64,000 bases of DNA, taken from Escherichia phage vB_EcoM-Ro121c4YLVW. The DNA is taken from the sequence record NC_052654.1; one strand, written 5' to 3'. The notes below the pieces were generated by a model, which saw only the letters and a list, made by a program, of their open reading frames with translations, was not told the origin of the DNA and did not search any database. The translations under genes and the position numbers were made by a program. How positions within the stretch are numbered: the first letter of the stretch is position 1; the number at the start of each line of letters is the position of its first letter. Shown piece after piece: positions 25,902 through 45,975 of the stretch.

Positions 25902-28577
25902 TTAGTCGTAATATTTCAAACCTGTAATGAACTTCGATCCCCAATCCGCACTTGCGGCGGTGAACGTCAACATCCAAGTTGTAGCTGTACCAGTGAAGAC
26001 CTCTCGTTGCACAGTACCATCAGTGTGGTAAATGTCCACGCCAGTATGTCCATTCTTAGGAATAGTGAAGGTAACAGCACTGGTAGTGTCTCGTGCATAA
26101 GAACAAACAAATGGTGTCCCCGCCCAAACTGGATTTGTCATATCACCCATCTCAAGCTGTGGAACCCAAGCAATAAGACCTGCCGTACCATCTCCTGCGA
26201 AAGTGTCTGATCCACTTGCATTCAAAGCTATAATCTCATAGGTTATAGATGCTTGTTTGGCAACTGTCACTTTGTGTAGAATTACACGATACCAACCATT
26301 CCCCATATCGATTATGTTTGCATCTGCACCTGTAAATGTTCCAGCTACAAGATCATAAGTCCCTTCGTTAATCTCATCTCCTGAAGTCAATTTGAGTTTC
26401 ACTTTAGTGATCCCATCTGGCTTCAAGAATACGGATGCCGCCCAGTGCTTACCTGCTGTAATATCAGAAGCTGTATTCACTGCTGATAAAATATGTTGTC
26501 CTGAAGTTGTAGAAGGTGTTAACTTGTAAGTGTTAGCCGTAGTTCCAACCGGAGAGTTGATTGTTGATGCTGTGACTGTCAAGTTCGTCTTCAACCACGG
26601 GGAAGCTGTTGTCAAGTTATTGTTGATAAAGATATGTGTACGGTTGGCTGCTACAACACGTCTACCTTGTGGAGTTGTACCAACATATTCTAAAGGTGCT
26701 ACGGGAGCAGAACTCTCTGTAGGTACAAGGATATCTCCAGAAGCCCTGGCATAACGGTTACTCCTATTGACCTTTACATCCGTTGGAATAGTTTCTTGCG
26801 TCAAATCATAGTCCATCACAATCACCACAGCATTCACTGCGAGATAAGAACTATCTTCGGCAGTTACCACACCTTGATAAGTTGCTCTACAACCGATACG
26901 ACAATCACCATCAGCAACCGCTGTAATAACGCCTGTAACGGGGTCAACTGTTGCTACCGTAGGGTCATTAGAGAAATACTCAACAACCATACCAGGTAAG
27001 CTTGCTGCCCCTGTTGGCGTTATTTCTGCTACCATTGTTTGTGTTGTTCCTACTTCCATCGCAGATAAGCTAGGAGTGTAAACGCTCAATGTTGAAGCAT
27101 ATCCTCCAGAGGTATCTGATAAAGTTGTTCCTTCAGCGTTTAAGGCTGTCATACCTGCATCAAAACCACCTTCTGCATGGAAAGTCATTAAACCAGTAGA
27201 TGATATTGTCATGTTTGCAGGGGCAGAAGAAGTGTATTTAATATTGAAAAGTTTACCTCCTTCTGGGCTAACAGAATGTGTCAACTGTTTAGTTCCGCCT
27301 ACAATACAAATTCCTAAAGAATCTGTAGTTAAGCCAGTTGCCAGAATATCACCCGTAATCACGGAGCTTGCTATTGGTGTGAATTTATTATAGTTTAGAC
27401 CACTATTGAACAGATACGAGGCTTTCCCATCTTTCCAAATACCGGAATAATACATATCTCCATTATAAACGAAAAAGGTTCCTTGATAACCTAATTGGTT
27501 AGTAACATCCATATTCAGCGTATGAACGCTTGTGAGCTTGTTTATATCCCAAGAACCCACTCCTTCAGGTTTAACTGGTTTTCCCACCTGGAGTGGATCT
27601 CCGCTCGCAGAATCATACCCCAAACCTAAGTTTGCAGTGTAGTTCTTACCAATAGCCCACAAGGAATTATTGATCCCAACGAAAAAAGAGTGGCGGCTTG
27701 GTGGAAATTTCCATGTTGAAAAACCTGCTGCAAAGGTGTCCAGTTTAGTGTAGGTTGTTTCTGTATTAGACCTAACATACAAGTAGTTTACCGTACCCGT
27801 ACCACCGGAGGTATCTCCTACAACTATTGTCTGGGAAACTGTATTGATGTAATCTTTGACATACACTGTTTCAGTAGCGGATATCTTGGCATTGACAAAA
27901 GCTGTTGTTGTGTTATTATTACCTGCTAAACCTTTACTGGCTCCACAAACACGCAAGGTTCCCACATTGTTGACATAAGAACATTGGTTGTAACCTGCAT
28001 CAAAAGCAACTGCTGCGCTTGTTATCTGACGAGGAGTAGAAACTTCGTTAGTAGTGCTTGCACCTAAACTGCCTACTGTATTTTGACCCGATCCATAAAG
28101 AACACCACTATTCATTAACCAGAGAGTATTGTTATACCCTCCTTTAACCTCTTTAAGATTGGCTAAAGAAATAGTCCCTGTTATTACAGATGGAAAGCTG
28201 GTCCAAGTAGTTACACATGCATCCGTACCACCTGCTGCTATAGATCCTACCAACCCTGCTGTCAATCCTGAATATTGCCATCCCCCACTGTTAGTTTTAA
28301 TAACAAAACAACGATCTGCGGTAAACACATCTGCTACTACAGTAGAAGCTAAGTGGAAATTATTGAATCGTGCACTACGAGTTCCATCTGCAATCTCACC
28401 AAAAAGGTTTGCGCCTTGAGTAAACAATCTACCATCATTAAGCAAAATTGCTAAACTGCTATTAGAATTACCAGCATTATCTGGGTAATCTAAAGTGATT
28501 ACTTTTTTAACAATACCTGCTGGCAGAGGAACGACACCAGTGCTGGTCATAATAGTAAATATTGGAATTGGAAACAT
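25902..28577 (-). CDS. tail fibre / receptor-binding protein (large, Gly/Ser/Thr/Asn-rich)
   Basis: 891 aa, beta-rich low-complexity composition typical of fibres; last gene of the minus-strand tail module; RBS GGAGGG. Confidence 0.65.
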   Translation of the reverse strand: MFPIPIFTIMTSTGVVPLPAGIVKKVITLDYPDNAGNSNSSLAILLNDGRLFTQGANLFGEIADGTRSARFNNFHLASTVVADVFTADRCFVIKTNSGGWQYSGLTAGLVGSIAAGGTDACVTTWTSFPSVITGTISLANLKEVKGGYNNTLWLMNSGVLYGSGQNTVGSLGASTTNEVSTPRQITSAAVAFDAGYNQCSYVNNVGTLRVCGASKGLAGNNNTTTAFVNAKISATETVYVKDYINTVSQTIVVGDTSGGTGTVNYLYVRSNTETTYTKLDTFAAGFSTWKFPPSRHSFFVGINNSLWAIGKNYTANLGLGYDSASGDPLQVGKPVKPEGVGSWDINKLTSVHTLNMDVTNQLGYQGTFFVYNGDMYYSGIWKDGKASYLFNSGLNYNKFTPIASSVITGDILATGLTTDSLGICIVGGTKQLTHSVSPEGGKLFNIKYTSSAPANMTISSTGLMTFHAEGGFDAGMTALNAEGTTLSDTSGGYASTLSVYTPSLSAMEVGTTQTMVAEITPTGAASLPGMVVEYFSNDPTVATVDPVTGVITAVADGDCRIGCRATYQGVVTAEDSSYLAVNAVVIVMDYDLTQETIPTDVKVNRSNRYARASGDILVPTESSAPVAPLEYVGTTPQGRRVVAANRTHIFINNNLTTASPWLKTNLTVTASTINSPVGTTANTYKLTPSTTSGQHILSAVNTASDITAGKHWAASVFLKPDGITKVKLKLTSGDEINEGTYDLVAGTFTGADANIIDMGNGWYRVILHKVTVAKQASITYEIIALNASGSDTFAGDGTAGLIAWVPQLEMGDMTNPVWAGTPFVCSYARDTTSAVTFTIPKNGHTGVDIYHTDGTVQREVFTGTATTWMLTFTAASADWGSKFITGLKYYD

Positions 28578-28589
28578 TTAAACCCTCCA

Positions 28590-28616
28590 TAAAAAGAAAG
28601 CCCCTTTCGGGGCTTC
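28590..28616 (-). terminator. rho-independent terminator (minus strand) after the collagen-like fibre gene
   Basis: Hairpin AGCCCC-TTTC-GGGGCT with a U-tract on the minus strand. Confidence 0.65.
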
Positions 28617-28618
28617 TG

Positions 28619-30643
28619 TTATCGTGTTACAACAACCATGTCCACGATATCACCCACACCAGGATACGTTAATTGCAAAATTGTTACTGCGTTAGCAGTA
28701 GTTGCTATTTCTGTATCATTTAGTGCTCCATAAGACGCATCTAGTGTAACCGTGTGTCCCGTTGTATCTTGAATCAAATAAATCATTGCTGAAAACGCTT
28801 TAGGTTTTGTAGAGCCAGTGACACCAGGCCATGCTCCAACTGTCAGAGCGTCAGTTACTGTAACAACATACATATTGGAAGTTCCAGAAGGAGTCCAAGA
28901 TGCTCCAGAGTTGGCAGTAGTTGTTTCAAGTTCCATGAAACCTGCTGTAACTTTAGTTGGTGTTATAGCTTCCGTAGGATCTGATCCTGATATTTCGATC
29001 CAGTTTCCATCAGACCGACCATACGTCAAGCCGTCTTGAGGGGCTTCTGGTATACTAGGAAGAGTGCCTATAAGCGTCCACGTAGAAGAATCTGTTTTCT
29101 TAAACACTGCTCCAGTGGTAGTATTGAAGGCGTAATCATTGATAACACCGTCTCCTGTGACTGGATTAGTTGTTGCTACAAACCACTGTGCGCCATCCTT
29201 ACCGTTGGTCCCATCAGTACCGTTGGTTCCGTTTGTTCCAGGATCACCCTTATCTCCTTTATCCCCTTTTTCACCTTTGTCGCCTTTAATACTTCCCATG
29301 TCAACAAAAGATGCGGAATTGGTGTCTTGATCGTAGGTATAGATGTAAAGATTACTAGTGTCTTCAGTTAAGTAAGCATCACCATAGTTATTGTAAACAG
29401 GGAGAGCTTCACTGTTCGGAACATGACCTTTAGCTGTAATTGATGTTCCTCCAAGACTGCCAACATTCATCCATTCCGTAGCATCTTGGACCCAAACATA
29501 TAAATCATTATTAATTTTATATGCGTCACCTACTTCTCCAGTAGGAGGAAGTTCAGCTTCACTGTTCAGAACCCCGATAATCTCTAAGCCTGATCCTGTT
29601 GCACCCACTGGTCCTTGTGGACCTAGTTCACCTTGTGGACCTCGCTCTCCTTGATCACCCTTGTCTCCTTTTGGACCTTTAAGTGAGGCAATAAAATCTA
29701 CTTCTGTCCCTTCATTACCAGCATCCAGCCAACTTTGATATGCAGATTTCCCTTCATCTCCATCTGTTCCATCAAGACCGTCTTTACCTGCCTCACCTTG
29801 TGGACCTTGAGGACCAACAATATTACCCATGTTGACCCAAGCTGTCCCATTAGAGACATAAAGATTACCATTGATAGAATAAGCTTGGCTTACGTTTTCA
29901 GAGTTAGGTTGTGGTAAGTTACTTGTAGAAGGTAAATCCCCACGATAATCAAAACCGTTGGCGTTAACACCAGGTGCTCCCTGTGGCCCTGTAGGACCAA
30001 CATCACCTTTATCACCTTTTATAGAGGTAAGAAAGTCATAAACAGATCCTGTATTACCATCTGCCAACCATACCTCATAAGCTGATTTCCCTTCTGGTCC
30101 AAGAGAAGAAATAAGTTTCCAAACAGAACCATCCCAAGCGTAAATCACATCACCTACGATATAACCATCTCCTGCGATGTTACCTGTAGATGGTAGTTCA
30201 CTAGTGCTTGCTAATGATCCCTTAATATTAAGTTGAGCACCAGTATCTCCTTTCAAAGAAGCAAGCCACTGGGCTTCTGTTCCAACAAAACCATTATCAA
30301 GTGCGATCTGATAAGCCGATTTACCAGCTTCAGGTATTGCTTCTGACAAATCATTAATCTGTTGTTGCACTGCCGTAAACTTGGCATTGATAATTGCTAT
30401 ATCATCAGCGGTCCCAACATTTTGCCATGCAAGGGAAGAAATACCACCTGTGGTGGCTGGCGTAGAGTTTGCTGGAACTACTTTAGGAAAAGTTCCTTTC
30501 CATTGGTAATAATTCCCTTCTGCTGCTAACAGCAAAACTTCACGGGAATTACGTAATGTAAAACCTGCCTCAAAGCTGCGACGTTTTCGATAAGTAGCTT
30601 CTACCAGATCGGCTATCGCACTATTAGGTCTTGTTAAATTCAT
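28619..30643 (-). CDS. tail fibre protein with collagen-like G-X-Y repeats
   Basis: Several GXY runs, e.g. GDKGEKGDKGDKGDPGTNGTNGTDGTNGKDG and GPKGDKGDQGERGPQGELGPQGPVGATG. Confidence 0.75.
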   Translation of the reverse strand: MNLTRPNSAIADLVEATYRKRRSFEAGFTLRNSREVLLLAAEGNYYQWKGTFPKVVPANSTPATTGGISSLAWQNVGTADDIAIINAKFTAVQQQINDLSEAIPEAGKSAYQIALDNGFVGTEAQWLASLKGDTGAQLNIKGSLASTSELPSTGNIAGDGYIVGDVIYAWDGSVWKLISSLGPEGKSAYEVWLADGNTGSVYDFLTSIKGDKGDVGPTGPQGAPGVNANGFDYRGDLPSTSNLPQPNSENVSQAYSINGNLYVSNGTAWVNMGNIVGPQGPQGEAGKDGLDGTDGDEGKSAYQSWLDAGNEGTEVDFIASLKGPKGDKGDQGERGPQGELGPQGPVGATGSGLEIIGVLNSEAELPPTGEVGDAYKINNDLYVWVQDATEWMNVGSLGGTSITAKGHVPNSEALPVYNNYGDAYLTEDTSNLYIYTYDQDTNSASFVDMGSIKGDKGEKGDKGDKGDPGTNGTNGTDGTNGKDGAQWFVATTNPVTGDGVINDYAFNTTTGAVFKKTDSSTWTLIGTLPSIPEAPQDGLTYGRSDGNWIEISGSDPTEAITPTKVTAGFMELETTTANSGASWTPSGTSNMYVVTVTDALTVGAWPGVTGSTKPKAFSAMIYLIQDTTGHTVTLDASYGALNDTEIATTANAVTILQLTYPGVGDIVDMVVVTR
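29200..30020 (-). repeat. collagen-like triplet-repeat coding region (interrupted Gly-X-Y blocks)
   Basis: Four GXY blocks in the fibre protein; the nucleotide sequence shows short imperfect triplet periodicity. Confidence 0.6.
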
Positions 30644-30704: not shown

Positions 30705-33700
30705 TTAGGTTGTTGGCACATCTACTACTGGCGTTGGGCGAATAACCGCAGTATTACCTACAGAAACATTACTGGAATCATTAGGTATGGTTTTAATTCT
30801 AACTCCAGCACTTGTAGGCGTTACAATTGGATCTGCAATGTCTATTTTAACTGGGTTAGTCCACGTATCATTATCTTGATAAGGTGCACGAGTAATAACT
30901 GTGTCCAAATCTGCTCCACCTACGCCAGCACCAGGAATACGGATACGTGTCCCTGCTGACAGAGGGTAATGATACAACCAAGAAGCATTTGTTGCTGTCC
31001 CGTTAGGAGTCAAGTTCTGTGTCAGGAAGGTATCTCCTGCCTGTGTAGCTCGAATACCGAAAGCTGGGATATCTGGAATATATGCCCCACTTGTTGTTAC
31101 AAGGAAGAACGTATTATCCGCCTTGACTATCATATCACCTTTGTCAAACTCTTTCCCTGTTGGGAAATGCATTCCATCAATGTTTCGACTAGGATTAGGT
31201 TCTAAGTAATAAACTTTGCCCGTTGTCCCTACAATAGCTCCAATACCACCTGCGATATTGGTATACATATTAGCTTCAACATTACAGTTGACACGATGAA
31301 TATCCGAGTAACGGCAACGGCTCCACTGTGGACGACCAGTAACCATCGTCTTGCCATCTGGGTAACAGTTCACGTTAACCATTTCAAGAACAGATTTTTC
31401 TCTACGGAAGAATCCATCATAAAATGTCCCTGGACCAGATTCAGGTTGACCAACACAATCGAAGATATTACAGGTGATGTTAGACATTGAAAGCCAAGAA
31501 GCTATACCGAACAACTGCAATGCAGCGCAACGAATATTTTCAAAGCTAACTCTGTTTTCATAACCTGGCCCAGCGGAAACTCCTGCAAAAACACGCCCAG
31601 TTTTGGTGTGAATATTACGAACAGAATAGTTAAAGCATGGGTTTGAAGGTCTACCCTGTGCCGGAACTACCGGATTACCCTCTTCGTCCAGAACTGCGTT
31701 AGTTCCCCACTCCAAATAAATCATACGGATATTACTTGCAAGTGTGCTACCGTCTGTTTTAGGCTCTCCGTAAACACCGTCAATCGTAAAATCTTTACTT
31801 CCATACATTACAACTGCGCCAGTTGCCAAACCTGTCCCAACAGATACAGTCTGGTCTGGATCGCCATGAATGTTTTCGATAGAGATATTACGACCAACTT
31901 CTACGTGGACAATCTGACGACAACGTTTTGCAAAAACGTTACGAATTGTAATATTCTTGCAATATTGATCATCAGGGATTCCGTAACCATATGGTCCTTT
32001 ACCAGCTACACCGATACCGATACCCCAGTTGGACAGAGGAATAGGAGCGTTAGTCCCATCGATATTAGACAGGTAAATATTCTCAATCACACAACCATCG
32101 TCATAATGTTTATTGATGACGTTCAGTTCTATTGCATCACCTTGCATATCCATGAAGGTAAGGTTACGGAAGACACCACGTGTTACTGGTTCCCCTGTTC
32201 CTTGTTGAAGGATGCCATACAACCCGTTTTTAAAAGTACAATTATCAATTTCAAAAGTACCTGATATTGGGTTGCCTTGGAATACCAAGCTACCAACTTG
32301 ACCTGCGCGAGGAGCACCGTCCCACAAACAATCGAACATGCGCACAGCACCACCCCAATACATAACACGAGAGTTACGGAAAGTTGTGCCTTCTACTGTA
32401 GCATTTTGCACACGATAGTCGCGTTGACCACGGAACACACCCCCACGCAAAGTGATACCTTGAATATCAAAAGAGCTTGTCGTGAAAGTCATATCGCAAC
32501 CGTAAGCATCGAGAATCTTGCTTTTCGAAGCTTTTGCTGCTAACAGTGCCGCTTGGAAAGCTGCTTCTGGTGTGGTATATGTTGTTGTGTTGTTAGCAAA
32601 TTCTGACAAGTAGACAACATCGAATAAATCGTTGTATGTTCCACCACGAGGGGTTAACAGTCCTTCTGTATTGGTCAGAACCCATGCATTTGGACCTAAT
32701 CCACCGCTTGTCTCCAATGTATCGGAGGCCAAAATACTTTTTGGTAAACTTCCAGCCCAACGATAACGACCAGCACCACGTCCAATCGTCTGATTTTTAG
32801 CTGTCAGAGTTACGTTATTACCAAAGCTTGTAGGCAAATGAACAAACTGTCCACGTTCAACAGCTAGTGCAGAAAGATCTACAGACCCCCCAGAATAAGT
32901 CATTACTCCAGAAACAGACAAGGATGTTAAAGTTCCTGTGATGTTAGGAGGTAATGTGTAGGAAGACTGTGCTACTGGATCATACAGAGCTTTAATCCCT
33001 GTTAATGATTGACCTGCTGTTGCGTAAGCCACCTCATCATCTAACAAACCATATTTACGAGCAATAGTTTGCAGAGGGACTTTATCCATGCTTTCTGTTA
33101 GTTCTTCCGTTTTTGTTTCTAAACTAACAAGACGGTTCTCTAGATTAGGATCTGTATCTGCTGAAGCTACGATTTTACCAATATAAGCAAAAAGCTTGTT
33201 TGGTAGTCCTGTTGCAGGATCGTGTCCCAAAGGTTCAGATAAGATGATCTTACTATCTTCTATACGGAAAGCTTCCCCCAGAACCTGAATAACACCATTG
33301 ATCGTAACAATAGCACTATCAAAGATGTAAGGAGGACTAATTACTGTTTCATAACCCGTTGCACCAGAGTATACCCACGGGGTGACTTCTGTTGCTAATT
33401 GTTCTGTTTTCAGTCCCCACAATACCCAGTTGTTATCTCCTACTGGAGTCCCTTGCATAGGGATTGGGTTAACCAATGTAGCGTTAGGGGCATAGTAATA
33501 ACCGCTCAATACTCCATTCTGGAAATAACGAAGTTGGTTAAAAACTGTTTCGTTTGTGCCTTGCGCCCAATCCAATGGGCTTTTAAAGAAAAAGTTGTCA
33601 ACAAGGGCTTTTCTCAGGGTTGGTATCAACCCTGATTCTGTTTCAATACTCTCTGTAGCACTTCCATTAATAACATCATGGAGTTGGTTAGATGAGAAAA

Positions 33701-33758: not shown

Positions 33759-33761
33759 TAA

Positions 33762-38085: not shown

Positions 38086-38390
38086 AGTGCGTTCTCATTA
38101 CTTTTTAAATCACAAGATATAGCTAATTCCCCAAGGTCTACAGAACCCGCTGAATGCACAAGTACAGCAGCACTAAGACTAATGGCAGTAGTACCTGGGG
38201 CAATATCAGCAGGTAGGGAATACGCCCTTTGCGTCTCCTTATCATAGATAACCTTATACCCACCCAAATCCACACCAACTGAGAAGTAAACAACCTCAGA
38301 TTGTTTAACTCCAAAGTGACGGGCTACTGCTTGTTTATTGGTTAAGATTCCGGTTGAACCTTTACCACCTTGGGAGAACATTTCGTTCAT
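38082..38390 (-). CDS. hypothetical protein
   Basis: ATG with AAGAGG RBS. Confidence 0.45.
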   Translation of the reverse strand: MNEMFSQGGKGSTGILTNKQAVARHFGVKQSEVVYFSVGVDLGGYKVIYDKETQRAYSLPADIAPGTTAISLSAAVLVHSAGSVDLGELAISCDLKSNENAL

Positions 38391-38414
38391 AACAACCTCT
38401 TTGTTTTTCTAAGT

Positions 38415-38436
38415 AAGCCCCTCTTTGGAGGGGCTT
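38415..38436. other. GC-rich stem-loop in the 250-bp noncoding region
   Basis: AAGCCCCTC-TTTG-GAGGGGCTT; sits just upstream of the RBS of the gene at 38390 on the minus strand; no canonical U-tract. Confidence 0.45.
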
Positions 38437-38615
38437 GCAGTGGTAGTGACAACACTTTGAGTTAGTACGATAGTAACTAAAGACAAGATTAACCCTGCTA
38501 CGATATGTTTTCATCATTTTATCACATGGCGATGACATGCACTTGCAGGACATAGCTTGTGTGGATTGTGCTGAATGCAATTTTGGCCTATTGTCATCAG
38601 TAAGAAAGCATTCAT

Positions 38616-38640
38616 TCCCCCGCCGAAGCGGGGTTTTTGT
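38616..38640. other. GC-rich hairpin (CCCCGCCGAAGCGGGG) with plus-strand T-tract; terminator-like, orientation ambiguous
   Basis: Hairpin followed by TTTTTGTT on the plus strand, directly downstream of a minus-strand spike gene; core resembles the hairpin at 50051-50066. Confidence 0.4.
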
Positions 38641-40928
38641 TATATAACTGAAGTAACAACACCATTGATTGTTGCTTTTATCTGTGCAGTTGGATGAGGT
38701 CTAACATTAATGGTTCCTCTATTGCTTGATGCCCCAATGAATACATCATACCCTGAAGTTGCGTTGAAATCCGAGAACAGGCTAACCGGGCTTGCATTCT
38801 GAGTGGCAGGCACAGCAGATGATGTTCCATAACGCTTCAGGATACCTGGTGTTGCTAAGGATGATGCAGCATCGCGACGGCAAGTAACGTCAAGATCAAA
38901 TGTGTATCCATCAAACCCGTATTGTGTTGAATCCTGATAAAGTTTCATTACTTCTACTGTTGAACCTCCGACAGAAGAGTTATGGTTAAGTCCTGTGAAC
39001 TTCATTCTGGTAAATCGATTGTCCTGCGCAACTGTATCGAATGTCTTTTCAATTTTAAGGCTGCTTAAACCATATACACCGTTCAGAAGTATAGGGTTCT
39101 GAACACGCGTACTCATGCTTATATCAATAGTCGGCGCGTTATACAGGTCAATCCTGTCACCAATGGAACCTGAACGATCTTTGATATTTACGGCAATAGA
39201 AAATGTAGCATCATTATTATCAATTTTTATTGTCGATCTCTTATCTACCTCTATTGTCATAGATGGAGATGACTCTGCTACTGAAGTTCCTGTTATTGTC
39301 AAAGAACGTGGATATTTAGTTACATATATTTTTGCTTCTTCGCTATAGTTTCCCGCCACAAAGGTTGCCTGGCTGTCTCCTATGCGTATTTCACCAGTTT
39401 CAACAGTTGCAGCAATAACAGACGTTCCAATAATCGGAACCTCTACTTTAGTTCCGGAAGGGAAATCAGATGTCATTGCTCGATCAAGAGTAATGACGTT
39501 TCCCGATATTGCTGTAATTCTTCGAGTCTCAACACCGCCAGTCGAGTTTGTAAAAGCAATCTCAAACCAGGTATCAAAACCAGAGGCATCTGCAACAGTA
39601 ACAGTGTTGTCATTGATAGATGCTGGCGATGTTAGTGTGGTGCTCATACCCTCAATAGACAAAGTACATTGGGCTTTGTCACTACTACCAATGTAACCCA
39701 TCAACTTGATGGAGTTATTACGAACTCGAACACCGTATTTAGTAGCCGTCGAGCCGTTTTTTGTTCCCTGTGAGTGTCCATACCAATACATAACAAGATG
39801 TAAAAGATCGTAGTTGCTGATACGGTGATCAATTGATTTATTACGAACAGTAGCATAAGGCGCAGTATAGATAGCTCTGGCTGCTGCGCTGGCACCATTA
39901 TTAGAAATGTTGCCATTTACGGTGAACCCTTCGACGGTTTGGTGCCAGTGGAAACGGTCACGGTTCCTGTCACGCGGATCAATTCCGACATGGTGCAGTG
40001 AAATGTCAGATGACGTTGACATGATTATTGTTGCGTCATTTCCGGCACCGGAAAAAGTAAATCCTCGACGATCAACATCAAGGTTGATTGTATTTGATAG
40101 ATAACTTCCGGAAGGGAATGATAACTTAGATATTATACTGTTAGCCCTTGCAACCCTGTTTGCTTCATCTATAGCAACTGAGTTTTCATCTGCGTCTGCA
40201 CCGCCAAAACCGAATTCATCATACCCCATGCTCTCTCTTACAATTAAGTTGGCATTAAACCCGCCCGCTATTGGGATTGAGTATGTATCATCATTTTGTG
40301 TTGTTGATATTAACCATTCTGACTCAGATCTTATTCCATGTTTGTTTTTATATGTTTTTACAGTCATCCCTTCGCTGAATGTGGCACCATCCCCTGATGG
40401 CAGAATTCCAGATATTAACTCTGAAACGCTATTAAATATTATAGTTGTGTTTTTATTAACCCACAATCTCAAAGAAGCATCGCCAACACTAACCCACGCA
40501 CTAGGACCAACGCCACCAGTTGATGTAGGGGTTGATTTAGGTGGTACATCTTTAGGGAAACCAGACCCCCATGTGTAGCACTGAGCACCCGCTATGTACC
40601 AGACAGCATCAGTTACACTGCCCACTGTAGCCCCTTCTTCAAAACTACCATCAACAAGAGTTAACCCAGCCTCGGCAAGACTACGACGCCACTGTTCACG
40701 ATCATTAAGAAGATTGTTATTCAACTCTTCCTGAACAGTATTACCATTTGAGGATTGTATTAAATCTGCTCCATCTGTATCTTTCAACTGGGTGGCTAAA
40801 ACCACCCCAGTGTCAGTAAGAAAGTTGGAAACTGTGCTTTTAACAGTCTTATCAGGTTGGTCTAAAACCAGGTAATCAGAACCATTAACTTTTGATGTTT
40901 CGGGTAAATTAGTAATTGTAGTTGACAT
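38640..40928 (-). CDS. tailspike / receptor-binding protein
   Basis: 762 aa, beta-rich with N/G/S/T repeats. Confidence 0.6.
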   Translation of the reverse strand: MSTTITNLPETSKVNGSDYLVLDQPDKTVKSTVSNFLTDTGVVLATQLKDTDGADLIQSSNGNTVQEELNNNLLNDREQWRRSLAEAGLTLVDGSFEEGATVGSVTDAVWYIAGAQCYTWGSGFPKDVPPKSTPTSTGGVGPSAWVSVGDASLRLWVNKNTTIIFNSVSELISGILPSGDGATFSEGMTVKTYKNKHGIRSESEWLISTTQNDDTYSIPIAGGFNANLIVRESMGYDEFGFGGADADENSVAIDEANRVARANSIISKLSFPSGSYLSNTINLDVDRRGFTFSGAGNDATIIMSTSSDISLHHVGIDPRDRNRDRFHWHQTVEGFTVNGNISNNGASAAARAIYTAPYATVRNKSIDHRISNYDLLHLVMYWYGHSQGTKNGSTATKYGVRVRNNSIKLMGYIGSSDKAQCTLSIEGMSTTLTSPASINDNTVTVADASGFDTWFEIAFTNSTGGVETRRITAISGNVITLDRAMTSDFPSGTKVEVPIIGTSVIAATVETGEIRIGDSQATFVAGNYSEEAKIYVTKYPRSLTITGTSVAESSPSMTIEVDKRSTIKIDNNDATFSIAVNIKDRSGSIGDRIDLYNAPTIDISMSTRVQNPILLNGVYGLSSLKIEKTFDTVAQDNRFTRMKFTGLNHNSSVGGSTVEVMKLYQDSTQYGFDGYTFDLDVTCRRDAASSLATPGILKRYGTSSAVPATQNASPVSLFSDFNATSGYDVFIGASSNRGTINVRPHPTAQIKATINGVVTSVI

Positions 40929-40936
40929 TTTTACTC

Positions 40937-43090
40937 CTATATATAAAATTTTTGTGTTGTTACTAAATCTTCTCCAGATTTAGTAGCTAATGTAATTCCA
41001 CTTATGGTAGCAATCTCAACATTTGCTTGTTTAAGAGTGATATCTTGCAAATAACAATTCAAAGGCACATTACCCATATAGAAAACTTGGGATTGAGAAT
41101 TAACTACCGTGATGGAATCATGCATTATTTGAGGATAGGCCCATATATATTGTGTAAGCCCATTGAACTTATTGGCGTTCAACACTATATTACCTATAAT
41201 CATTTTCCAAAGATACGTGCGGTAGTTTGATTCAGGATCGAAGCCATACAAAGGTGCAAGAGTAGCATCTGGAACAAAACCCGAAAGATAGTGAATATCA
41301 GAATATTCAAAACCTAATTTTTCATGTGGTATGGTAATTGCATCGAATGCTTTCATCATTTTACCTTCCAGAAGCCAGTCGTAACACTCTGAACAGTAAA
41401 AATCAAAAGTTTCAGGAATGTAGTAATCAGACGGAAAGTTAACTTTCTCCATCAAACCGTTGCCAATAATTGACGGTAAGAACGGAAGCAATGTTACTTT
41501 AGCCCCTGGATAAGTTGCTCTGGTGTCTGTTGCAAACTTTGTAACTCTTAACCCTAGTTTACGAGACAAAAATGCATAGTATTCGTCAAATGGTGTTCCT
41601 GTTTTATAATTATCTATTGTTCCTGCATCTTGTGCAAATAAGCCTGTTTCTGTATTGAATGCCAGTTTGGTAGTGTAATCATATATACAAGGCATTTTAC
41701 TTGCTGTATTATACCACCACCAAGGTTCACCAATTTGAATGACGACTGGAATATTGTTAGCTTGAGAAATAGATGCTATTTTGTTAATAACATTTTGCAA
41801 ATATTCCATGCCTTCGTCAATAGTTGGAGACAACACGTAACTAGGAGGCTTATACCCTGTTGCTGCAAGAGCATCGTTCCAATCATGCTGGACCCATTCA
41901 ACAGGACAAACTGTGCTCATCAACTCAAAACTTAAAGAGTTCATTATTGTGTAACCCTTCTCGTTCGCTATAGAATGGAAACTATTTAGCCAAGCTTCTG
42001 TAGCTGGATTCAGGAAGACAGATCTATTTAAAGCCCAAGATGTTCCGTTCCATGAGAACTCATAATAGTGAGACATTCCGTTGTAATGGTTAATCATTCC
42101 ACGATAACCTAGTGCATATGTATTATAAATAACTCTCTCTGGAGTCAGGTTATACATATCATCATAAGATGTGCACATGCGAATATCATGTTCAGGCTGG
42201 ACAAGGTTGCTGACTTTCATCATACTGTAACCAGAAGTAGGTTCAAGAAGAGTGAAAGTAAACCAAGCCTCTTGACTGGCAATAGGTACAATCTCTTCTA
42301 TTTCTTCATACCTTGCTGTAATCAAAGAGAAGAAAATATTATCTACAGCACTCATATCCAAAGGAATATCATTATTAGGGCCAGAAAAGATATTACCAAA
42401 ATCTAACTTTATTGTGGCTGTTTTACCATCTTCTGAAATATCTGAAGCGTAGAATCCTAAACTGACATAATGAACACTTTTATCCAGGAGAGTTACAGTC
42501 AAAGTCGGCACCAAAGGTTCTTCTTTAAAACCTGGCATGTTTTGACTAATTTCCATTTTAAACCAAAGTTTCTCTGAACTTAAATCTGTGTGAGGCAAAT
42601 ACCCAACACCTTTATGGTCATATTTGTCAACTGTGCTCCAAATAACCCCTGCCAAACCTGCTGTTGTTCTGTTTACAAATCTTGCAGTAAAAGAGTCTCC
42701 ATGAGATACAATAGAACAACTTTCCGTTGCTTGAGAATCTATTGTCCAATACATAGGAGAGAACATTTTAACGTCTTTTGTAGTCCAAGTTATTGGAGTA
42801 GTATTTTCTTGGATAGTAGTTATAATACAATTGATGGTTGTTTCAACCATCATGTTATTTTGACTAATCCCTGAAACTTGGAGGGAGAAGTTAAGATCTA
42901 TTGAGTTCTTTGGTCGTTCAAATACTTCAACCACAATAGTAGCAGAATCAGCATCATCAGGGAACACAAGTGTTCCCGATTTTGCAATATAATCTCTACC
43001 AGCGACTGCTGTTCCGTCAACAGTCGTGTAGTTAAATGAACTCGCATTTACTCTCTTGTCTCGCGTGACAGTAAATATAGCTTGTTTCAT
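40937..43090 (-). CDS. tailspike / receptor-binding protein with N-terminal Calx-beta-like segment
   Basis: 717 aa; N-terminal DGTAVAGRDYIAKSGTLVF...TIVVEV resembles Calx-beta-type beta-sandwich motifs. Confidence 0.55.
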   Translation of the reverse strand: MKQAIFTVTRDKRVNASSFNYTTVDGTAVAGRDYIAKSGTLVFPDDADSATIVVEVFERPKNSIDLNFSLQVSGISQNNMMVETTINCIITTIQENTTPITWTTKDVKMFSPMYWTIDSQATESCSIVSHGDSFTARFVNRTTAGLAGVIWSTVDKYDHKGVGYLPHTDLSSEKLWFKMEISQNMPGFKEEPLVPTLTVTLLDKSVHYVSLGFYASDISEDGKTATIKLDFGNIFSGPNNDIPLDMSAVDNIFFSLITARYEEIEEIVPIASQEAWFTFTLLEPTSGYSMMKVSNLVQPEHDIRMCTSYDDMYNLTPERVIYNTYALGYRGMINHYNGMSHYYEFSWNGTSWALNRSVFLNPATEAWLNSFHSIANEKGYTIMNSLSFELMSTVCPVEWVQHDWNDALAATGYKPPSYVLSPTIDEGMEYLQNVINKIASISQANNIPVVIQIGEPWWWYNTASKMPCIYDYTTKLAFNTETGLFAQDAGTIDNYKTGTPFDEYYAFLSRKLGLRVTKFATDTRATYPGAKVTLLPFLPSIIGNGLMEKVNFPSDYYIPETFDFYCSECYDWLLEGKMMKAFDAITIPHEKLGFEYSDIHYLSGFVPDATLAPLYGFDPESNYRTYLWKMIIGNIVLNANKFNGLTQYIWAYPQIMHDSITVVNSQSQVFYMGNVPLNCYLQDITLKQANVEIATISGITLATKSGEDLVTTQKFYI

Positions 43091-43098
43091 TTTACCCC

Positions 43099-45975
43099 TT
43101 ACTCGGTAACGTCCACACTAATGTTTGCCATTGTCAAAACAGTAAGTGCAGGAATATTGCTCGAATCCAAAACAGGTAATGCATTTTGGGGATTAAGTTT
43201 TTTGTATAAAGCATACAACCCAAAACCACGTAACAACTCTCCAGCGTGGAAGCCAAAGAAGACTCCGTTATCACTGTCTGGTCTAGGAGCAGCACTCCAA
43301 CAACCATTCATAACGTGATTAGGACCAAGAACAATATAGTTTTCCTGAATAAGTTCAAAACAGCGGTCTGCTACTATTTTAATGTTAGGAATTTCTGAAT
43401 CATATCCAGCCATCCCCATTATAGCACATCCCGCCATAAAGAGCGCAGACATGTGACTTGTAAAATCATCTACAGGCGCAGCCACTTCTCCATTGGGATA
43501 AAATATTGTTGGTGTTCTTCCTTCGTTGTTATCTTGGAACCACTTCAGATAGTTGATCCAGTTTTTACAAACTGTTAAAAGTTTTTCAGGAACTTCTGCT
43601 CCTCGTTGTTTCAGTTCGTATACTGTATGACACGCACAGAAGAATGCTCGTGCTTCATAACCATCCCAAGCTTTATCGTTCCAATGATACATTGTGAACT
43701 CATTCTTGTTTCCGTATTTATGAGCATCCCAACGATCCCAAACATAAGCTTGTGCCATTGGCCCAGGCATCACAGGGGCAAACTTATTATAAAACCACAT
43801 TTGTGAATCATATAAAAAGTCTATACTGTTGTTCATACGAACCCAGTCAATATCTCTCCCTTTAAAACAATATAAGGATGGGTATTGATAACCTGGGTAA
43901 GGAATACCACGCCAACCGTCATATAATGCTGTGTTAGGATCACTAATATTGGAAAATGGAATGATTCCTGGAGTATAATTCAAACTGTCAAGTTTATAGT
44001 CCAGTATTGTACAATCTCCAAGTTTTGCTGTATAAGGATTTTCAGATGAAACTGTAACCCTGAAATACATTGTGTAATCATCGCCAGCGGCTGAAGAATA
44101 CAAAGATGGGATATCGTTAACGCAATAAAAGTCGATTGCCCCTGTCAAGCCATTTGCAGGTTCAGAATCCAATGCAATGTTGATCTGATCAACAGTAGTC
44201 AGGTTTATTGACGAAGGTTTTGTCTCTGTGTCATTGTGATTAGGTTGCCAAGTGCTTAATTTGAAATCAGCAGGACTTAAAGCTTTAGTAACCCATGCAG
44301 AATTTGTTTTTTCTAACATGGCCCACCATCTCCAACCTGCGGAATCCGTAATAGTGATGTTAAAATCATCTGCGTATGAACGATATGTAATAGATTTTAA
44401 ATTGGCTGTTTTAGTTGGTGTTAACCAAAACCCAACAGTAAAACCACCATCTGAATCCATATTAGCAGAAACTATCTGATCACTATTTGTCCCAGCAATA
44501 CCAGTTGCATATTTATATTGTATCACAGTATTGCTTCCCCAGTCAACAATAATTCTGGGTTCAGCAATAATATATACACCACCTCCAGGAGGTTCGGTGC
44601 GCATAAAACTAGATAAAGGTATATCCATCTTAGTCATATTAGCTGCACCAAGAGGTAAGCCACAACGATATGTCACTGTGTCTGTTTCACTCTTAGTTTT
44701 GCTTAATTCTAGCTCTGGACGGAAAAGAACACCTTCCCCTGCATCATCTACACCTTGAAACTCAATACGCAGTTTTGAATTCTGATCTACTCTGAACCAA
44801 ACTGCCTGTTGTTCTAGAGTTGTTTGTGCTGAAACATCTTGGCGAATTACTGTGTATCCTAATTCGTCACGAGAATATTTAGGTATTGCTGTAGATGGGT
44901 ATGAGTAATCATACGAGATACCATCTGTAAAAGGAATTATTGCTGTCGTAGATCTACGGAAGAATTTATCAAACATATCGATGTTTGAGTAGTCTTGACA
45001 CAACAATAAAGAAGATTGCCAGCAAAGCCAGTATTTTCTCTCTCCTGTGATCTGATACATCAAGTAGTTTGCATCACACCACCACGTTTCAGCATCGGAA
45101 GCATTATCTTGATAGCCTAACTCTACCGGAACGTTTACAGGACGGTTATGCCACATCTCATTACGCTTAAGCAGATATCCACCGTGTTCTACAGGATTGC
45201 ATGTAGCGTAGTTGAATTTATAGTCCCCGTTCACAGAAGCATTTTTAAGTTGCACTGTTCCATATTCTGCAAAGCTATGACCAGTAGATAAAATGTTACC
45301 ATCCCAATCAACTTTACGTCCTAGACGGTCTATAATCCATTCAACGTCCCACTGATCTCCATATTCTTTCCAGTTGGTTGAACCATCTGGGTTAGTTGCA
45401 TAAACTGTTGCGTTAACGGAGTTCCAACCAAGATTGCCATTGAAAGCAAACCAAGCTTTATCTAAGTATTCCCCCCAATGCGGTGCACCTTTAGGAATAA
45501 CAGTCCTTCCGTTAATCCAAGTCATCATGCTACCTTTGAACCCGCCGTGCGTAGGATACCCATCATCTGTGAGAGGGTAATGTGCTAAACGTGGTTCTTT
45601 ACCATTGATGATCCAGTTGGGACGATATTTAGCTGGAGGATCAGGAATAGGTTGGCCCCCGAAGAAGTGATCTATGTAGGCTTGCCAATACTTCTCGGCA
45701 GATTCAAGATATTTTTTATCCCCTGTAGCCAAATATGTATAAGCAAAACCAGTGATAAGCACAGATTGACCTTCGGTAGTAGCGTCACCGTTTGGTTGCC
45801 CTTCCTGCGCTGTCCAGTTAATAAAGTGTCTGTTGTTCGCCAATACGTTTTGTGGGTTGATAATGTAATGCTGAACCGTAGGATCTATGGTAAGCCCAGT
45901 ATTTCTTTCCAAAAACTGAACCAACCCTTCAATCAACTGAAACGTGTTGTCAATATTGTGCTTAACTTTTGACAT
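43099..45975 (-). CDS. tailspike-like protein with possible glycoside hydrolase domain
   Basis: 958 aa; aromatic-rich N-terminal half (many W/Y/H) suggesting a carbohydrate-active domain; no firm family assignment. Confidence 0.55.
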   Translation of the reverse strand: MSKVKHNIDNTFQLIEGLVQFLERNTGLTIDPTVQHYIINPQNVLANNRHFINWTAQEGQPNGDATTEGQSVLITGFAYTYLATGDKKYLESAEKYWQAYIDHFFGGQPIPDPPAKYRPNWIINGKEPRLAHYPLTDDGYPTHGGFKGSMMTWINGRTVIPKGAPHWGEYLDKAWFAFNGNLGWNSVNATVYATNPDGSTNWKEYGDQWDVEWIIDRLGRKVDWDGNILSTGHSFAEYGTVQLKNASVNGDYKFNYATCNPVEHGGYLLKRNEMWHNRPVNVPVELGYQDNASDAETWWCDANYLMYQITGERKYWLCWQSSLLLCQDYSNIDMFDKFFRRSTTAIIPFTDGISYDYSYPSTAIPKYSRDELGYTVIRQDVSAQTTLEQQAVWFRVDQNSKLRIEFQGVDDAGEGVLFRPELELSKTKSETDTVTYRCGLPLGAANMTKMDIPLSSFMRTEPPGGGVYIIAEPRIIVDWGSNTVIQYKYATGIAGTNSDQIVSANMDSDGGFTVGFWLTPTKTANLKSITYRSYADDFNITITDSAGWRWWAMLEKTNSAWVTKALSPADFKLSTWQPNHNDTETKPSSINLTTVDQINIALDSEPANGLTGAIDFYCVNDIPSLYSSAAGDDYTMYFRVTVSSENPYTAKLGDCTILDYKLDSLNYTPGIIPFSNISDPNTALYDGWRGIPYPGYQYPSLYCFKGRDIDWVRMNNSIDFLYDSQMWFYNKFAPVMPGPMAQAYVWDRWDAHKYGNKNEFTMYHWNDKAWDGYEARAFFCACHTVYELKQRGAEVPEKLLTVCKNWINYLKWFQDNNEGRTPTIFYPNGEVAAPVDDFTSHMSALFMAGCAIMGMAGYDSEIPNIKIVADRCFELIQENYIVLGPNHVMNGCWSAAPRPDSDNGVFFGFHAGELLRGFGLYALYKKLNPQNALPVLDSSNIPALTVLTMANISVDVTE

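What the first reader, a model, noticed from the sequence alone, without database searches (positions are those of the whole stretch)
25902..45975. Large multivalent receptor-binding arsenal: at least six tail fibre or tailspike genes
The tail module contains three very large spike-like proteins (38640..45975), a predicted beta-helix spike (30705..33758), a collagen-like fibre (28619..30643), a further large fibre (25902..28577) and a P2-style fibre plus chaperone pair. This suggests a branched adsorption apparatus with several depolymerase specificities and broad or capsule-dependent host range.
Basis: inference. Interest (0 to 1): 0.5.

Follow-up and report, generated by a model that had tools for sequence, protein, structure and literature searches.

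The report
Known multi-fibre phage adsorption module
This stretch is the tail-fibre and tailspike gene block of a phAPEC8-like E. coli phage, a real but already well-described "Swiss-army-knife" host-recognition apparatus. In this isolate its one swappable spike most likely targets the O159 O-antigen.

Summary
The window is a Phapecoctavirus (phAPEC8-like, Stephanstirmvirinae). Region 25902-45975 is 98.5% identical over 100% of its length to phage vB_EcoM-P3322 and is gene-for-gene syntenic with phi92 gp140-gp152. phi92's "multivalent adsorption apparatus" was published in 2012 and imaged again by cryo-EM in 2026. A 2025 paper already lists six tail-fibre gene types for this subfamily.

The general interpretation holds, but several details do not:
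- Only one of the "three very large spike-like proteins" is a beta-helix tailspike (762 aa).
- The 958-aa protein is a conserved globular protein with an (alpha/alpha)6 glycosidase-like barrel.
- The 717-aa protein is a Calx-beta plus TIM-barrel relative of N4 sheath proteins gp64/gp65.
- The 891-aa "fibre" is an RCC1 propeller plus Ig protein of unknown virion location.

Within the genus every fibre gene is 97-100% conserved apart from the 762-aa spike (one exception: the 891-aa protein is 86% in ZCKP1). The spike's body is 73.5% identical to AV101 TSP4, an experimentally proven O159 O-antigen depolymerase. This isolate therefore carries an O-antigen spike where phi92 and phAPEC8 carry a capsule endosialidase.

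The one mildly unexplained feature is a conserved 102-aa orphan tailspike docking domain (38082-38390).

Verdict: ordinary and already known.

The parts
45975..46448 (-). 157-aa small fibre-like protein (phi92 gp140 position; 'TfpS3')
   Evidence: PHROG 9017 'tail fiber protein', E 2.7e-68. Same size and position as phi92 gp140. No PDB sequence hit. 99-100% conserved within the genus.
43099..45975 (-). 958-aa conserved tail protein with an (alpha/alpha)6 glycoside-hydrolase-like barrel and beta-sandwich insertions (phi92 gp141 position; 'TfpL')
40937..43090 (-). 717-aa Calx-beta + NCTSP_N + TIM-barrel protein, a homologue of N4 sheath subunits gp64/gp65 (phi92 gp142 position). It is the predicted glycan deacetylase-type receptor binder linked in the literature to the NGR glycan.
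   Evidence: Pfam PF23845 264.7 bits, PF23844 60.1 bits, PF03160 42.3 bits; all three cut-offs are 27. PDB N4 Gp64 9lc0_M E 2.2e-30 and N4 non-contractile sheath gp65 E 1.7e-12. Literature: PMC8594841 S5F, PMC8669472, PMC13434306. 98-100% conserved within the genus.
38640..40928 (-). 762-aa beta-helix tailspike in the exchangeable slot (phi92 gp143 position). It has a conserved docking N-terminus (residues 1-54/154) and an imported body (about 160-762) related to the O159-specific AV101 TSP4.
   Evidence: Pfam Tail_spike_N 54.4 bits. AF2 pLDDT 74; the top Foldseek PDB hits are all tailspike depolymerases, with 5w6h at E 3.5e-11. Body 73.5% identical to AV101 TSP4, 73.9% to LPST94 and 68.5% to ST31. 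The same body occurs behind P22 head-binding, T7 fibre and Calx-beta N-termini. Only P3322 shares the whole cassette. Residues 1-54 are 94% identical to phi92 gp143.
38391..38639 (-). 249-nt non-coding spacer with two GC-rich hairpins; a mosaic boundary zone of the cassette
   Evidence: Sequence. RNA fold -67.8 kcal/mol, z = -2.7. Homology with relatives resumes at different points inside it.
38082..38390 (-). 102-aa orphan tailspike N-terminal docking domain (CBA120/G7C type) with no spike body
   Evidence: PHROG 7992 positions 327-419, E 7e-62, plus many tailspike N-termini. 80-92% amino-acid identity to the N-termini of full-length spikes of Gamaleyavirus and Kuttervirus phages. Kept as an intact 101-102-codon ORF in P3322, TSP7_1, ZCKP1, BME3, PD06 and PaulScherrer; absent in phAPEC8, ESCO13 and phi92. 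The ORF plus 46 nt upstream is 80% identical in DNA to the 5' end of AV101 TSP1.
37843..38085 (-). 80-aa membrane protein (phi92 gp144 position); not a receptor binder
   Evidence: PHROG 1322; synteny.
36356..37843 (-). 495-aa baseplate wedge protein (gpJ-like; phi92 gp145), the docking platform for the fibres
   Evidence: PDB 21vq_h 'Phi92_gp145', E 5.3e-267, full length. Pfam Baseplate_J. Cryo-EM role from PMC13450770.
35724..36353 (-). 209-aa baseplate wedge protein (phi92 gp146)
   Evidence: PHROG 4056, E 6.8e-81. Synteny. PMC13450770.
34653..35714 (-). 353-aa short tail fibre (phi92 gp147, 'fibre III'; Mu GpS / P2 gpH type)
   Evidence: PHROG 4465, E 3.5e-108. PDB 'Short tail fiber' 9cuy_c, E 8.4e-23, C-terminal part. 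PMC13450770 assigns gp147 to fibre III. PMC8594841 relates it to Mu GpS.
34107..34652 (-). 181-aa tail fibre assembly chaperone (phi92 gp148)
   Evidence: Pfam Caudo_TAP 50.4 bits, cut-off 22.1. PHROG 136, E 6.6e-42. Directly abuts the fibre gene with a 0-nt gap.
33762..34097 (-). 111-aa membrane-anchored coiled-coil protein (phi92 gp149 position), labelled 'lipoprotein' in databases
   Evidence: PHROG 15210. The translation has no cysteine, so no lipobox.
30705..33758 (-). 1017-aa chimeric beta-helix tailspike: phi92 gp150-type anchor (1-215), inserted CBA120/G7C-type docking module (about 226-370), and a colanidase-like body (about 426-1000)
   Evidence: PDB phi92 gp150 6e0v, E 1.4e-79 over residues 426-1000; CBA120/G7C spike N-domains, E 1e-24 to 1e-30 over 226-399. 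BLASTP against phi92 gp150: 75% over 1-215 and 33% over 455-1002. 42% identity to the 102-aa ORF over residues 230-300. 100% conserved within the genus.
28619..30643 (-). 674-aa collagen-like fibre with an N-terminal Tail_spike_N docking domain (phi92 gp151 position; 'TfpM2')
   Evidence: Pfam Tail_spike_N 69.9 bits and Collagen 46.4 bits. Four G-X-Y runs. 60% identity to phi92 gp151 over residues 3-674. The C-terminus matches a tail fibre in 9cuy_g.
25902..28577 (-). 891-aa RCC1-propeller + Big_2 Ig protein with an exchangeable C-terminal third ('TfpM1'); virion location unknown
   Evidence: Pfam Big_2 41.2 bits and RCC1 24.3 bits, both above cut-off. PDB RcGTA head-spike fibre 6tb9, E 4e-14 over residues 580-831. 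The N-terminal 66% is conserved and the C-terminus is replaced in relatives. Absent from Justusliebigvirus. Flanked by terminator-like hairpins at 28616-28597 and 25898-25871.

Best explanation
The region is the baseplate-periphery and host-recognition module of a phAPEC8-like (Phapecoctavirus, Stephanstirmvirinae) E. coli myophage. It is the same apparatus described for phi92 as a multivalent 'Swiss-army-knife'.

**Shown by homology to solved or imaged phi92 parts**
- The 495-aa and 209-aa proteins form the six wedge heterotrimers.
- The 353-aa short fibre, folded with the 181-aa chaperone, is 'fibre III'. It hangs under the wedge and drives the rearrangement that triggers sheath contraction.
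- An L-shaped 'fibre I' sits on top of the wedge protein and carries the slot spike at its tip.

**Inferred**
- The 958-aa (alpha/alpha)6-barrel protein and the 717-aa N4 gp64/65-like protein form the proximal arm of fibre I. They also contribute glycan binding or processing; the NGR glycan is the candidate target.
- The 762-aa spike docks through its conserved first 54 or so residues and degrades an O-antigen, most likely O159 or a close chemotype.
- The 1017-aa colanidase-like spike and the 674-aa collagen fibre, both carrying Tail_spike_N docking domains, supply the branching 'fibre II' and further appendages. They clear colanic-acid-type exopolysaccharide or bind another glycan.
- The phage uses whichever surface glycan is present to reach the outer membrane. 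The short fibre then binds LPS core and the tail fires.

**Variation**
Variation between isolates is concentrated in one recombination slot (38082-40928). Its left arm is the spike's N-terminal codons. Its right arm is the spacer, the 102-aa ORF and the membrane-protein gene.
For: **Identity and synteny.** 98.5% identity over 100% of the region to P3322, and 98.3% over 86% to phAPEC8. Gene order matches phAPEC8 gp086-gp098 and phi92 gp140-gp152.

**Wedge and fibres.** The wedge protein equals the solved phi92 gp145, E 5e-267. Fibre assignments and the contraction trigger come from phi92 cryo-EM, PMC13450770.

**717 aa.** Pfam NCTSP domains lie far above cut-off, and the protein matches N4 gp64/gp65 in the PDB. 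The homologous predicted 'glycan deacetylase' receptor binder and NGR dependence of Vequintavirinae, phi92-like phages and N4 are described in PMC8594841 and PMC8669472.

**958 aa.** A confident model with a glycosidase-like barrel. Homologues fused to NCTSP domains argue for physical or functional coupling with the 717-aa protein.

**762 aa.** Tailspike fold. The body is 73.5% identical to AV101 TSP4, which was proven O159-specific (PMC10791037).

**1017 aa.** Matches the phi92 colanidase crystal structure, E 1e-79.

**One variable slot.** Per-gene identity table, cassette coverage and differing junctions. G+C is higher (0.42) over 26-34 kb and 38-40 kb than in the flanks (0.37-0.40), which is consistent with imported modules.
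Against: - No experiment on this phage exists in the data.
- In phi92 itself, the density for fibre I and fibre II was too poor to assign gp141, gp142, gp150 or gp151. None of the candidate models fitted fibre II. The placement of the 958-, 717-, 1017- and 674-aa proteins is therefore inference.
- The colanidase-like body is only 33% identical to phi92 gp150, so its substrate may differ.
- 73.5% identity to AV101 TSP4 does not guarantee the same O-serogroup.
- The 958-aa protein has no sequence match to any CAZy-type Pfam family, and its catalytic residues were not examined. It may bind glycan rather than cleave it, or be purely structural.
- NGR dependence was shown for Vequintavirinae and phi92-like phages, not for a Phapecoctavirus.
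Confidence: 0.85

Rival explanations
1. The effective arsenal is smaller. Only the 762-aa spike, the 1017-aa spike, the 674-aa fibre and the 353-aa short fibre bind receptors. The 958-aa and 717-aa proteins are non-enzymatic scaffold of the L-shaped fibre, and their glycosidase-like and TIM-barrel folds are structural relics.
For: Both are 98-100% conserved within the genus, and the 958-aa family is conserved end to end at 43-55% identity across very different hosts (Pseudomonas, Stenotrophomonas, Enterobacter, marine bacteria). That is unusual for a specificity determinant. In N4, gp64 is described as the minor structural subunit of the sheath. The 958-aa protein matches no CAZy-type Pfam family.
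Confidence: 0.3
2. The 891-aa protein (25902-28577) is not a tail fibre at all. It is a head or neck decoration, or a non-virion protein, so the reader's 'further large fibre' should be struck from the list.
For: Its only solved relative is the head-spike fibre of the Rhodobacter gene transfer agent, E 4e-14. It has Ig-like Big_2 and RCC1 propeller domains, which are common in capsid decoration proteins. It lacks the Tail_spike_N docking domain present in the 762-, 1017- and 674-aa proteins. It is bracketed by terminator-like hairpins, apart from the rest of the operon. The sister genus does without it.
Against: It lies at the end of the late tail operon on the same strand. It has a conserved N-terminal two-thirds and a swapped C-terminal third, the usual anatomy of a receptor binder. 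PHROG labels the family 'tail protein'. Even as a head fibre it could still bind host glycans, as the GTA head spike does.
Confidence: 0.3
3. One reading: six or more independent depolymerase spikes, each with its own capsule specificity, giving a capsule-dependent host range.
For: Relatives phi92 and phAPEC8 carry an endosialidase against K1/K92 capsule in the slot. Two beta-helix spikes are present here.
Against: Only two of the large proteins have a beta-helix spike fold. The slot spike here is related to an O-antigen (O159) depolymerase, not a capsule enzyme. All other components are invariant across isolates with different hosts. The short fibre and the collagen fibre show no enzymatic domain.
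Confidence: 0.07

Closest known systems
phi92 (Justusliebigvirus) multivalent adsorption apparatus (Schwarzer et al. 2012, J Virol 86:10384; cryo-EM in PMC13450770)
   Same: Exact gene order gp140-gp151: small fibre, 958-aa protein, roughly 717-aa protein, slot spike, membrane protein, two wedge proteins, short fibre, chaperone, small membrane protein, colanidase-type spike and coiled/collagen fibre. The wedge protein matches the solved gp145. The slot spike shares the 54-residue docking N-terminus.
   Different: - The slot holds an O-antigen-type spike rather than endosialidase gp143.
- The colanidase-type spike is 213 residues longer, with an inserted docking module, and only 33% identical in the body.
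- An 891-aa propeller/Ig protein replaces the small gp152/gp153.
- A 102-aa orphan docking-domain ORF is present (one search shows none in phi92).
phAPEC8 and other Phapecoctavirus isolates (closest: vB_EcoM-P3322, PV191315)
   Same: 97-100% amino-acid identity for every fibre, spike and baseplate gene outside the slot. P3322 is 98.5% identical across the whole region, including the cassette.
   Different: phAPEC8 has a 921-aa putative endosialidase in the slot and lacks the 102-aa ORF. ESCO13 has no slot spike at all. ZCKP1, TSP7_1 and SKA64 carry other spike bodies.
Ackermannviridae branched tailspike complex (CBA120 TSP1-4; AV101 TSP1-4)
   Same: - Several co-expressed spikes docked through conserved N-terminal modules (Tail_spike_N / D1-D2), with exchangeable bodies.
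- The 762-aa body is 73.5% identical to AV101 TSP4.
- The 102-aa ORF is 63-68% identical in protein to the TSP3/TSP4 docking domains, and 80% identical in DNA to the 5' end of TSP1.
   Different: - No T4 gp10-like branching (XD) domains were detected in any protein here.
- The spikes are spread through a P2/Mu-type wedge operon rather than forming a four-gene array.
- Only one position is exchangeable.
Phage N4 non-contractile sheath gp64/gp65 (PDB 9lc0, 9yf4)
   Same: The 717-aa protein has the NCTSP_N and NCTSP TIM-barrel domains and matches gp64 at E 2e-30. Phages carrying this module share dependence on the NGR glycan.
   Different: Here the module sits on a contractile-tailed phage's baseplate periphery, carries an extra N-terminal Calx-beta domain, and is one protein rather than a gp64-gp65 heterodimer wrapped around a podovirus tail tube.

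Membership tests
phi92/phAPEC8-type (Stephanstirmvirinae) adsorption module | Near-identical DNA to, and taxonomic placement with, described members | tested here: met
   98.5% identity over 100% coverage to P3322, and 98.3% over 86% to phAPEC8. 52 records cover at least 80% of the region.
phi92/phAPEC8-type (Stephanstirmvirinae) adsorption module | Gene order gp140-gp151 with P2/Mu-type wedge genes embedded between fibre genes | tested here: met
   ORF map against the phAPEC8 and phi92 annotations. The wedge protein equals PDB 21vq_h phi92 gp145.
phi92/phAPEC8-type (Stephanstirmvirinae) adsorption module | Several fibre sets physically present on each wedge, and a broad host range | not testable with these tools
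   Known only from phi92 cryo-EM and host-range work.
Beta-helix tailspike depolymerase (762-aa protein) | N-terminal particle-binding domain followed by a right-handed beta-helix body | tested here: met
   Pfam Tail_spike_N 54.4 bits, cut-off 25. In the AF2 model, the top 30 Foldseek PDB hits are all tailspikes or capsule depolymerases, the best at E 3.5e-11. The model is of moderate quality (pLDDT 74) and TM-scores are low because it is a monomer with flexible domains.
Beta-helix tailspike depolymerase (762-aa protein) | Specific cleavage of the O159 O-antigen, as shown for AV101 TSP4 | not testable with these tools
   Homology only: 73.5% identity over 600 residues. The AV101 TSP4 activity is reported in PMC10791037.
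Colanidase tailspike (phi92 gp150 family; 1017-aa protein) | Sequence homology across the catalytic beta-helix body | tested here: met
   PDB 6e0v, E 1.4e-79, residues 426-1000 against 95-623. Identity is only 33%.
Colanidase tailspike (phi92 gp150 family; 1017-aa protein) | Conserved catalytic residues and colanic acid cleavage | not tested
   Active-site residues were not mapped.
N4 gp64/gp65 'non-contractile tail sheath' family (717-aa protein) | NCTSP_N and NCTSP TIM-barrel domains above Pfam gathering scores | tested here: met
   PF23845 264.7 bits and PF23844 60.1 bits, both with cut-off 27. N4 Gp64 E 2.2e-30.
N4 gp64/gp65 'non-contractile tail sheath' family (717-aa protein) | Forms a sheath around a non-contractile tail tube | tested here: not met
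   The genome is a contractile-tailed myophage of the phi92 type. The protein shares the fold and family, but not the sheath role.
Collagen-like phage fibre (674-aa protein) | Runs of G-X-Y triplets | tested here: met
   Runs of 6, 8, 10 and 11 triplets. Pfam Collagen 46.4 bits, cut-off 27.2.
P2/Mu-type tail fibre plus assembly chaperone | Caudo_TAP chaperone gene immediately downstream of the fibre gene | tested here: met
   PF02413 50.4 bits, cut-off 22.1. 0-nt gap between the genes.
P2/Mu-type tail fibre plus assembly chaperone | The fibre itself homologous to P2 gpH / Mu GpS | tested here: inconclusive
   No Pfam hit. PHROG tail-fibre families only. One PDB hit to a 'short tail fiber' C-terminus. 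The Mu GpS relationship is asserted in PMC8594841 and was not re-tested.
(alpha/alpha)6-barrel glycoside hydrolases (958-aa protein) | (alpha/alpha)6 barrel fold | tested here: met
(alpha/alpha)6-barrel glycoside hydrolases (958-aa protein) | Sequence membership of a defined GH family, with catalytic acid/base residues | tested here: not met
Ackermannviridae-type branched TSP complex | T4 gp10-like XD branching domains on the larger spikes | tested here: inconclusive
   No such domain appeared in the Pfam, PHROG or PDB searches of any protein. No dedicated structural test was made.

The most novel reading that the evidence does not exclude
The 102-aa ORF (38082-38390) may not be a dead relic. 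It is a stand-alone copy of the tailspike docking domain, kept intact in at least two genera of Stephanstirmvirinae. It could be a functional part of the system in either of two ways:
- a small protein that caps or regulates a docking site on the branched fibre; or
- a maintained homology arm that lets the phage capture new spike bodies from G7C-like podophages and Ackermannviridae. Its DNA and protein are 80-92% identical to the 5' ends of their spike genes.
Probability: 0.25. Interest if true: 0.45.

Novelty: already known. Interest (0 to 1): 0.15.

Why it matters
It matters mainly as a correct annotation. The window is a phAPEC8-like phage whose host-recognition module follows the published phi92 blueprint.

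The practical value is the cleaned-up parts list:
- Only one slot (38082-40928) differs between isolates, so it is the place to look when predicting or engineering host range.
- In this isolate the slot spike points to O159-type E. coli rather than K1/K92-encapsulated strains.
- Two 'tail fibre' database labels are misleading. The 958-aa protein is a glycosidase-like barrel, and the 717-aa protein is an N4 gp64-like TIM barrel.

None of this changes current understanding of phage adsorption.

Tried and rejected
1. **dN/dS on the 102-aa ORF**. Close relatives differ by only 0-7 substitutions. The divergent copies (PaulScherrer, SKA64) are out of register or recombined at the 5' end. Values of about 0.45-0.55 are not interpretable, so the test is inconclusive.

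2. **Import of the cassette as an Ackermannviridae TSP4-spacer-TSP3 block.** This idea is only partly borne out. The end of the spike body and 23 nt after it match the AV101 TSP4 end (70%). The 102-aa ORF with 46 nt upstream matches the 5' end of AV101 TSP1 (80%). The roughly 180 nt between them have no AV101 match, so a single-block import is not shown.

3. **Sequence and profile searches of solved structures for the 958-aa family** found nothing. Only the fold comparison was informative.

4. **A shared C-terminal knob between the 157-aa and 674-aa proteins.** PMC13450770 relates phi92 gp140 and gp151 to the same head-spike protein, which suggested this. BLASTP found nothing significant.

5. 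**The Schwarzer 2012 paper** is not held in the library. Its content is cited only through other papers and the phi92 GenBank notes.

6. **Sigma-70 promoter scan.** 46 sites were found against 52 expected by chance, so it is uninformative.

7. **tRNA scan of the window:** none found.


Full report
**Observation.** They form a tight co-directional block, with gaps of -4 to 61 nt apart from one 249-nt spacer. ORFs of 674-1017 codons with PHROG matches of E = 0 to 1e-282 are not chance ORFs; the 762-aa spike matches tailspike families only through its N-terminal domain, best E 3e-23. The collagen claim is directly visible: the 674-aa protein has G-X-Y runs of 6, 8, 10 and 11 triplets and passes the Pfam Collagen threshold.

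**Identity of the genome.** Region 25902-45975 is 98.5% identical over its full length to Escherichia phage vB_EcoM-P3322. It is 98.3% identical over 86% to phAPEC8, the type phage of the genus Phapecoctavirus (Stephanstirmvirinae). 225 phage records match, and 52 of them cover at least 80%. The gene order equals phAPEC8 gp086-gp098 and phi92 gp140-gp152.

phi92 is the phage for which a 'multivalent adsorption apparatus' with several co-expressed fibres and spikes was described in 2012 (Schwarzer et al., J Virol 86:10384, cited; the paper itself is not held). A 2026 cryo-EM study re-examined it (PMC13450770). A 2025 comparative paper lists six tail-fibre gene types for the subfamily, with sizes 958, 890/891, 681, 353, 235 and 157 aa (PMC12695924). 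The headline of the finding is therefore a published fact for this lineage.

**What each gene is.**

*Wedge.* The 495-aa protein matches the solved phi92 gp145 end to end (E 5e-267). The 209-aa protein corresponds to gp146. In phi92 these form the six wedge heterotrimers onto which all fibres dock.

*Short fibre and chaperone.* The 353-aa protein and the abutting 181-aa Caudo_TAP chaperone correspond to gp147/gp148. gp147 is phi92 'fibre III', which hangs below the wedge and whose rearrangement triggers contraction. The BASEL study relates it to Mu GpS/GpU and to an LPS-core terminal receptor.

*Colanidase-type spike.* The 1017-aa protein matches the crystal structure of phi92 gp150 colanidase (6e0v, E 1.4e-79). 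It is a chimera of three parts:
- residues 1-215 are the gp150 anchor (75% identity)
- residues 226-370 are an inserted CBA120/G7C-type docking module, which phi92 lacks
- the beta-helix body is only 33% identical to gp150

'Colanic acid' is therefore a reasonable but unproven substrate.

*Collagen fibre.* The 674-aa protein starts with a Tail_spike_N docking domain and is 60% identical to phi92 gp151.

*The 'three very large spike-like proteins'.* Only the 762-aa protein is a tailspike. It has a Tail_spike_N domain, and its AF2 model (pLDDT 74) finds only tailspike depolymerases in the PDB (5w6h at E 3.5e-11).

The 717-aa protein is made of Calx-beta, NCTSP_N and an NCTSP TIM barrel (264.7 bits against a cut-off of 27). 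It matches phage N4 Gp64 (E 2e-30) and gp65, the two subunits of N4's non-contractile sheath. The BASEL work had already noted this homology as a conserved 'lateral tail fibre component with a sugar deacetylase domain'. Later work showed that N4, Vequintavirinae and phi92-like phages all depend on the NGR glycan.

*The 891-aa protein.* It consists of an RCC1-type propeller, a Big_2 Ig domain and a C-terminal part whose only solved relative is the head-spike fibre of the Rhodobacter gene transfer agent. Its N-terminal two-thirds are conserved and its C-terminal third is exchanged among relatives. It is missing from the phi92 genus and is flanked by terminator-like hairpins. It may well bind glycans, but nothing shows that it is a tail fibre.

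**Where the variation is.** Across six Phapecoctavirus genomes, every fibre, spike and baseplate gene is 97-100% identical in protein. There are two exceptions:
- the 762-aa spike, where only residues 1-54 to 1-154 are shared
- the 891-aa protein of ZCKP1, at 86% identity

Only P3322 shares the whole cassette. phAPEC8 and phi92 carry an endosialidase there, other isolates carry other bodies, and ESCO13 has none. The first 54 residues are 94% identical even to phi92 gp143, so they are the likely docking peptide.

The body (residues 160-762) recurs behind P22 head-binding, T7 fibre and Calx-beta N-termini in other phages. It is 73.5% identical to TSP4 of Agtrevirus AV101. AV101 TSP4 was shown by halo and infection-inhibition assays to recognise the E. 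coli O159 O-antigen, and its authors already noted a phapecoctavirus relative (PMC10791037). The best guess is therefore an O159-type O-antigen depolymerase. This isolate is not 'capsule-dependent' in the sense that phi92 is.

**How it most likely works.**

*Shown, by homology to imaged phi92 parts:* the wedge platform; the short fibre beneath it acting as the contraction trigger; and an L-shaped fibre above it bearing the slot spike.

*Inferred:* the 958-aa and 717-aa proteins build the arm of that fibre and handle a conserved glycan (NGR). The 1017-aa and 674-aa proteins, with their docking domains, form the branching second fibre. The spikes clear O-antigen and exopolysaccharide, so the short fibre can reach the LPS core.

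The phi92 cryo-EM could not assign gp141, gp142, gp150 or gp151 to density, so these placements remain open.

**The one unexplained item.** Between the spike and the membrane-protein gene lie a 249-nt spacer with two GC hairpins and a 102-aa ORF. The ORF is a stand-alone copy of the CBA120/G7C-type tailspike docking domain. Its first 92 residues are 80-92% identical to the N-termini of full-length spikes in Gamaleyavirus and Kuttervirus phages. The ORF plus 46 nt upstream is 80% identical in DNA to the 5' end of AV101 TSP1.

It is intact in P3322, TSP7_1, ZCKP1, BME3, PD06 and PaulScherrer, which span two genera. It is recombined at its 5' half in SKA64, and absent in phAPEC8, ESCO13 and phi92.

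Homology with relatives resumes at different window positions:
- 38637 (PD06)
- 38575 (TSP7_1)
- 38563 (ZCKP1)
- 38420 (BME3)
- 38278 (SKA64, inside the ORF)
- 38080 (phAPEC8 and ESCO13)

The spacer and ORF therefore form the right-hand mosaic boundary of the cassette. A dN/dS test was inconclusive. The most economical reading is a relic of a neighbouring spike gene that now serves, at least passively, as a homology arm. A functional capping protein is not excluded.

**Verdict.** The whole is an already known system in a phage nearly identical to deposited genomes. Interest is low.

Noticed in passing
window 38082-38390 (-) and spacer 38391-38639: A 102-aa ORF that is only the N-terminal docking domain of a CBA120/G7C-type tailspike. 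It is kept intact in two genera of Stephanstirmvirinae and is absent in the endosialidase carriers phAPEC8 and phi92 and in ESCO13. It sits at the right-hand mosaic boundary of the exchangeable spike cassette, and its stop overlaps the start of the next gene (ATGA).
   Followed up: partly
window 33762-34097 (-): The 111-aa protein labelled 'lipoprotein' in PHROG and RefSeq contains no cysteine, so it cannot have a lipobox. It looks like an N-terminal transmembrane helix followed by a coiled coil.
   Followed up: partly
window 30705-33758 (-), residues 226-370: The colanidase-type spike carries an internal copy of the tailspike docking module between its phi92-type anchor and its body. This looks as if a complete spike had been fused behind an existing anchor. 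phi92 gp150 lacks this insert.
   Followed up: partly
window 43099-45975 (-); homologues P0137-P0160, P0226: The 958-aa protein family is also found at about 53% identity in chromosomal contigs of E. coli and Enterobacter, up to 4.99 Mb long (prophages or tailocin-like loci?). In some phages it is fused to the NCTSP domains that here form the neighbouring 717-aa gene.
   Followed up: no
window 49246-49947 (-): The 233-aa ORF is annotated 'tail fiber protein' in the RefSeq records of phAPEC8 and phi92, and is probably the 235-aa 'TfpS2' of PMC12695924. It occupies the position of phi92 gp135, which cryo-EM identifies as the tail tube initiator. This is a likely database mislabel.
   Followed up: partly
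locus L012 (ESCO13) 12797-14860: ESCO13 has no spike gene in the variable slot. Its 717-aa homologue is 687 aa, matches only residues 1-683, and runs straight into the membrane-protein gene. The slot can therefore be empty.
   Followed up: no
window 25902-28577 (-), residues about 590-891: The C-terminal third of the 891-aa propeller/Ig protein is replaced by unrelated domains (DUF285 and others) in relatives such as tuntematon and phiWec190. It is a second, less obvious exchangeable module.
   Followed up: partly
window 26001-34000 and 38001-40000: G+C is 0.42 over the distal fibre genes and the spike cassette, against 0.37-0.40 in the flanking baseplate and replication genes. GC skew changes sign at about 25.9 kb, where the two transcription directions converge.
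   Followed up: no
window 1-64000: No tRNA gene was found in the whole 64-kb window.
   Followed up: no
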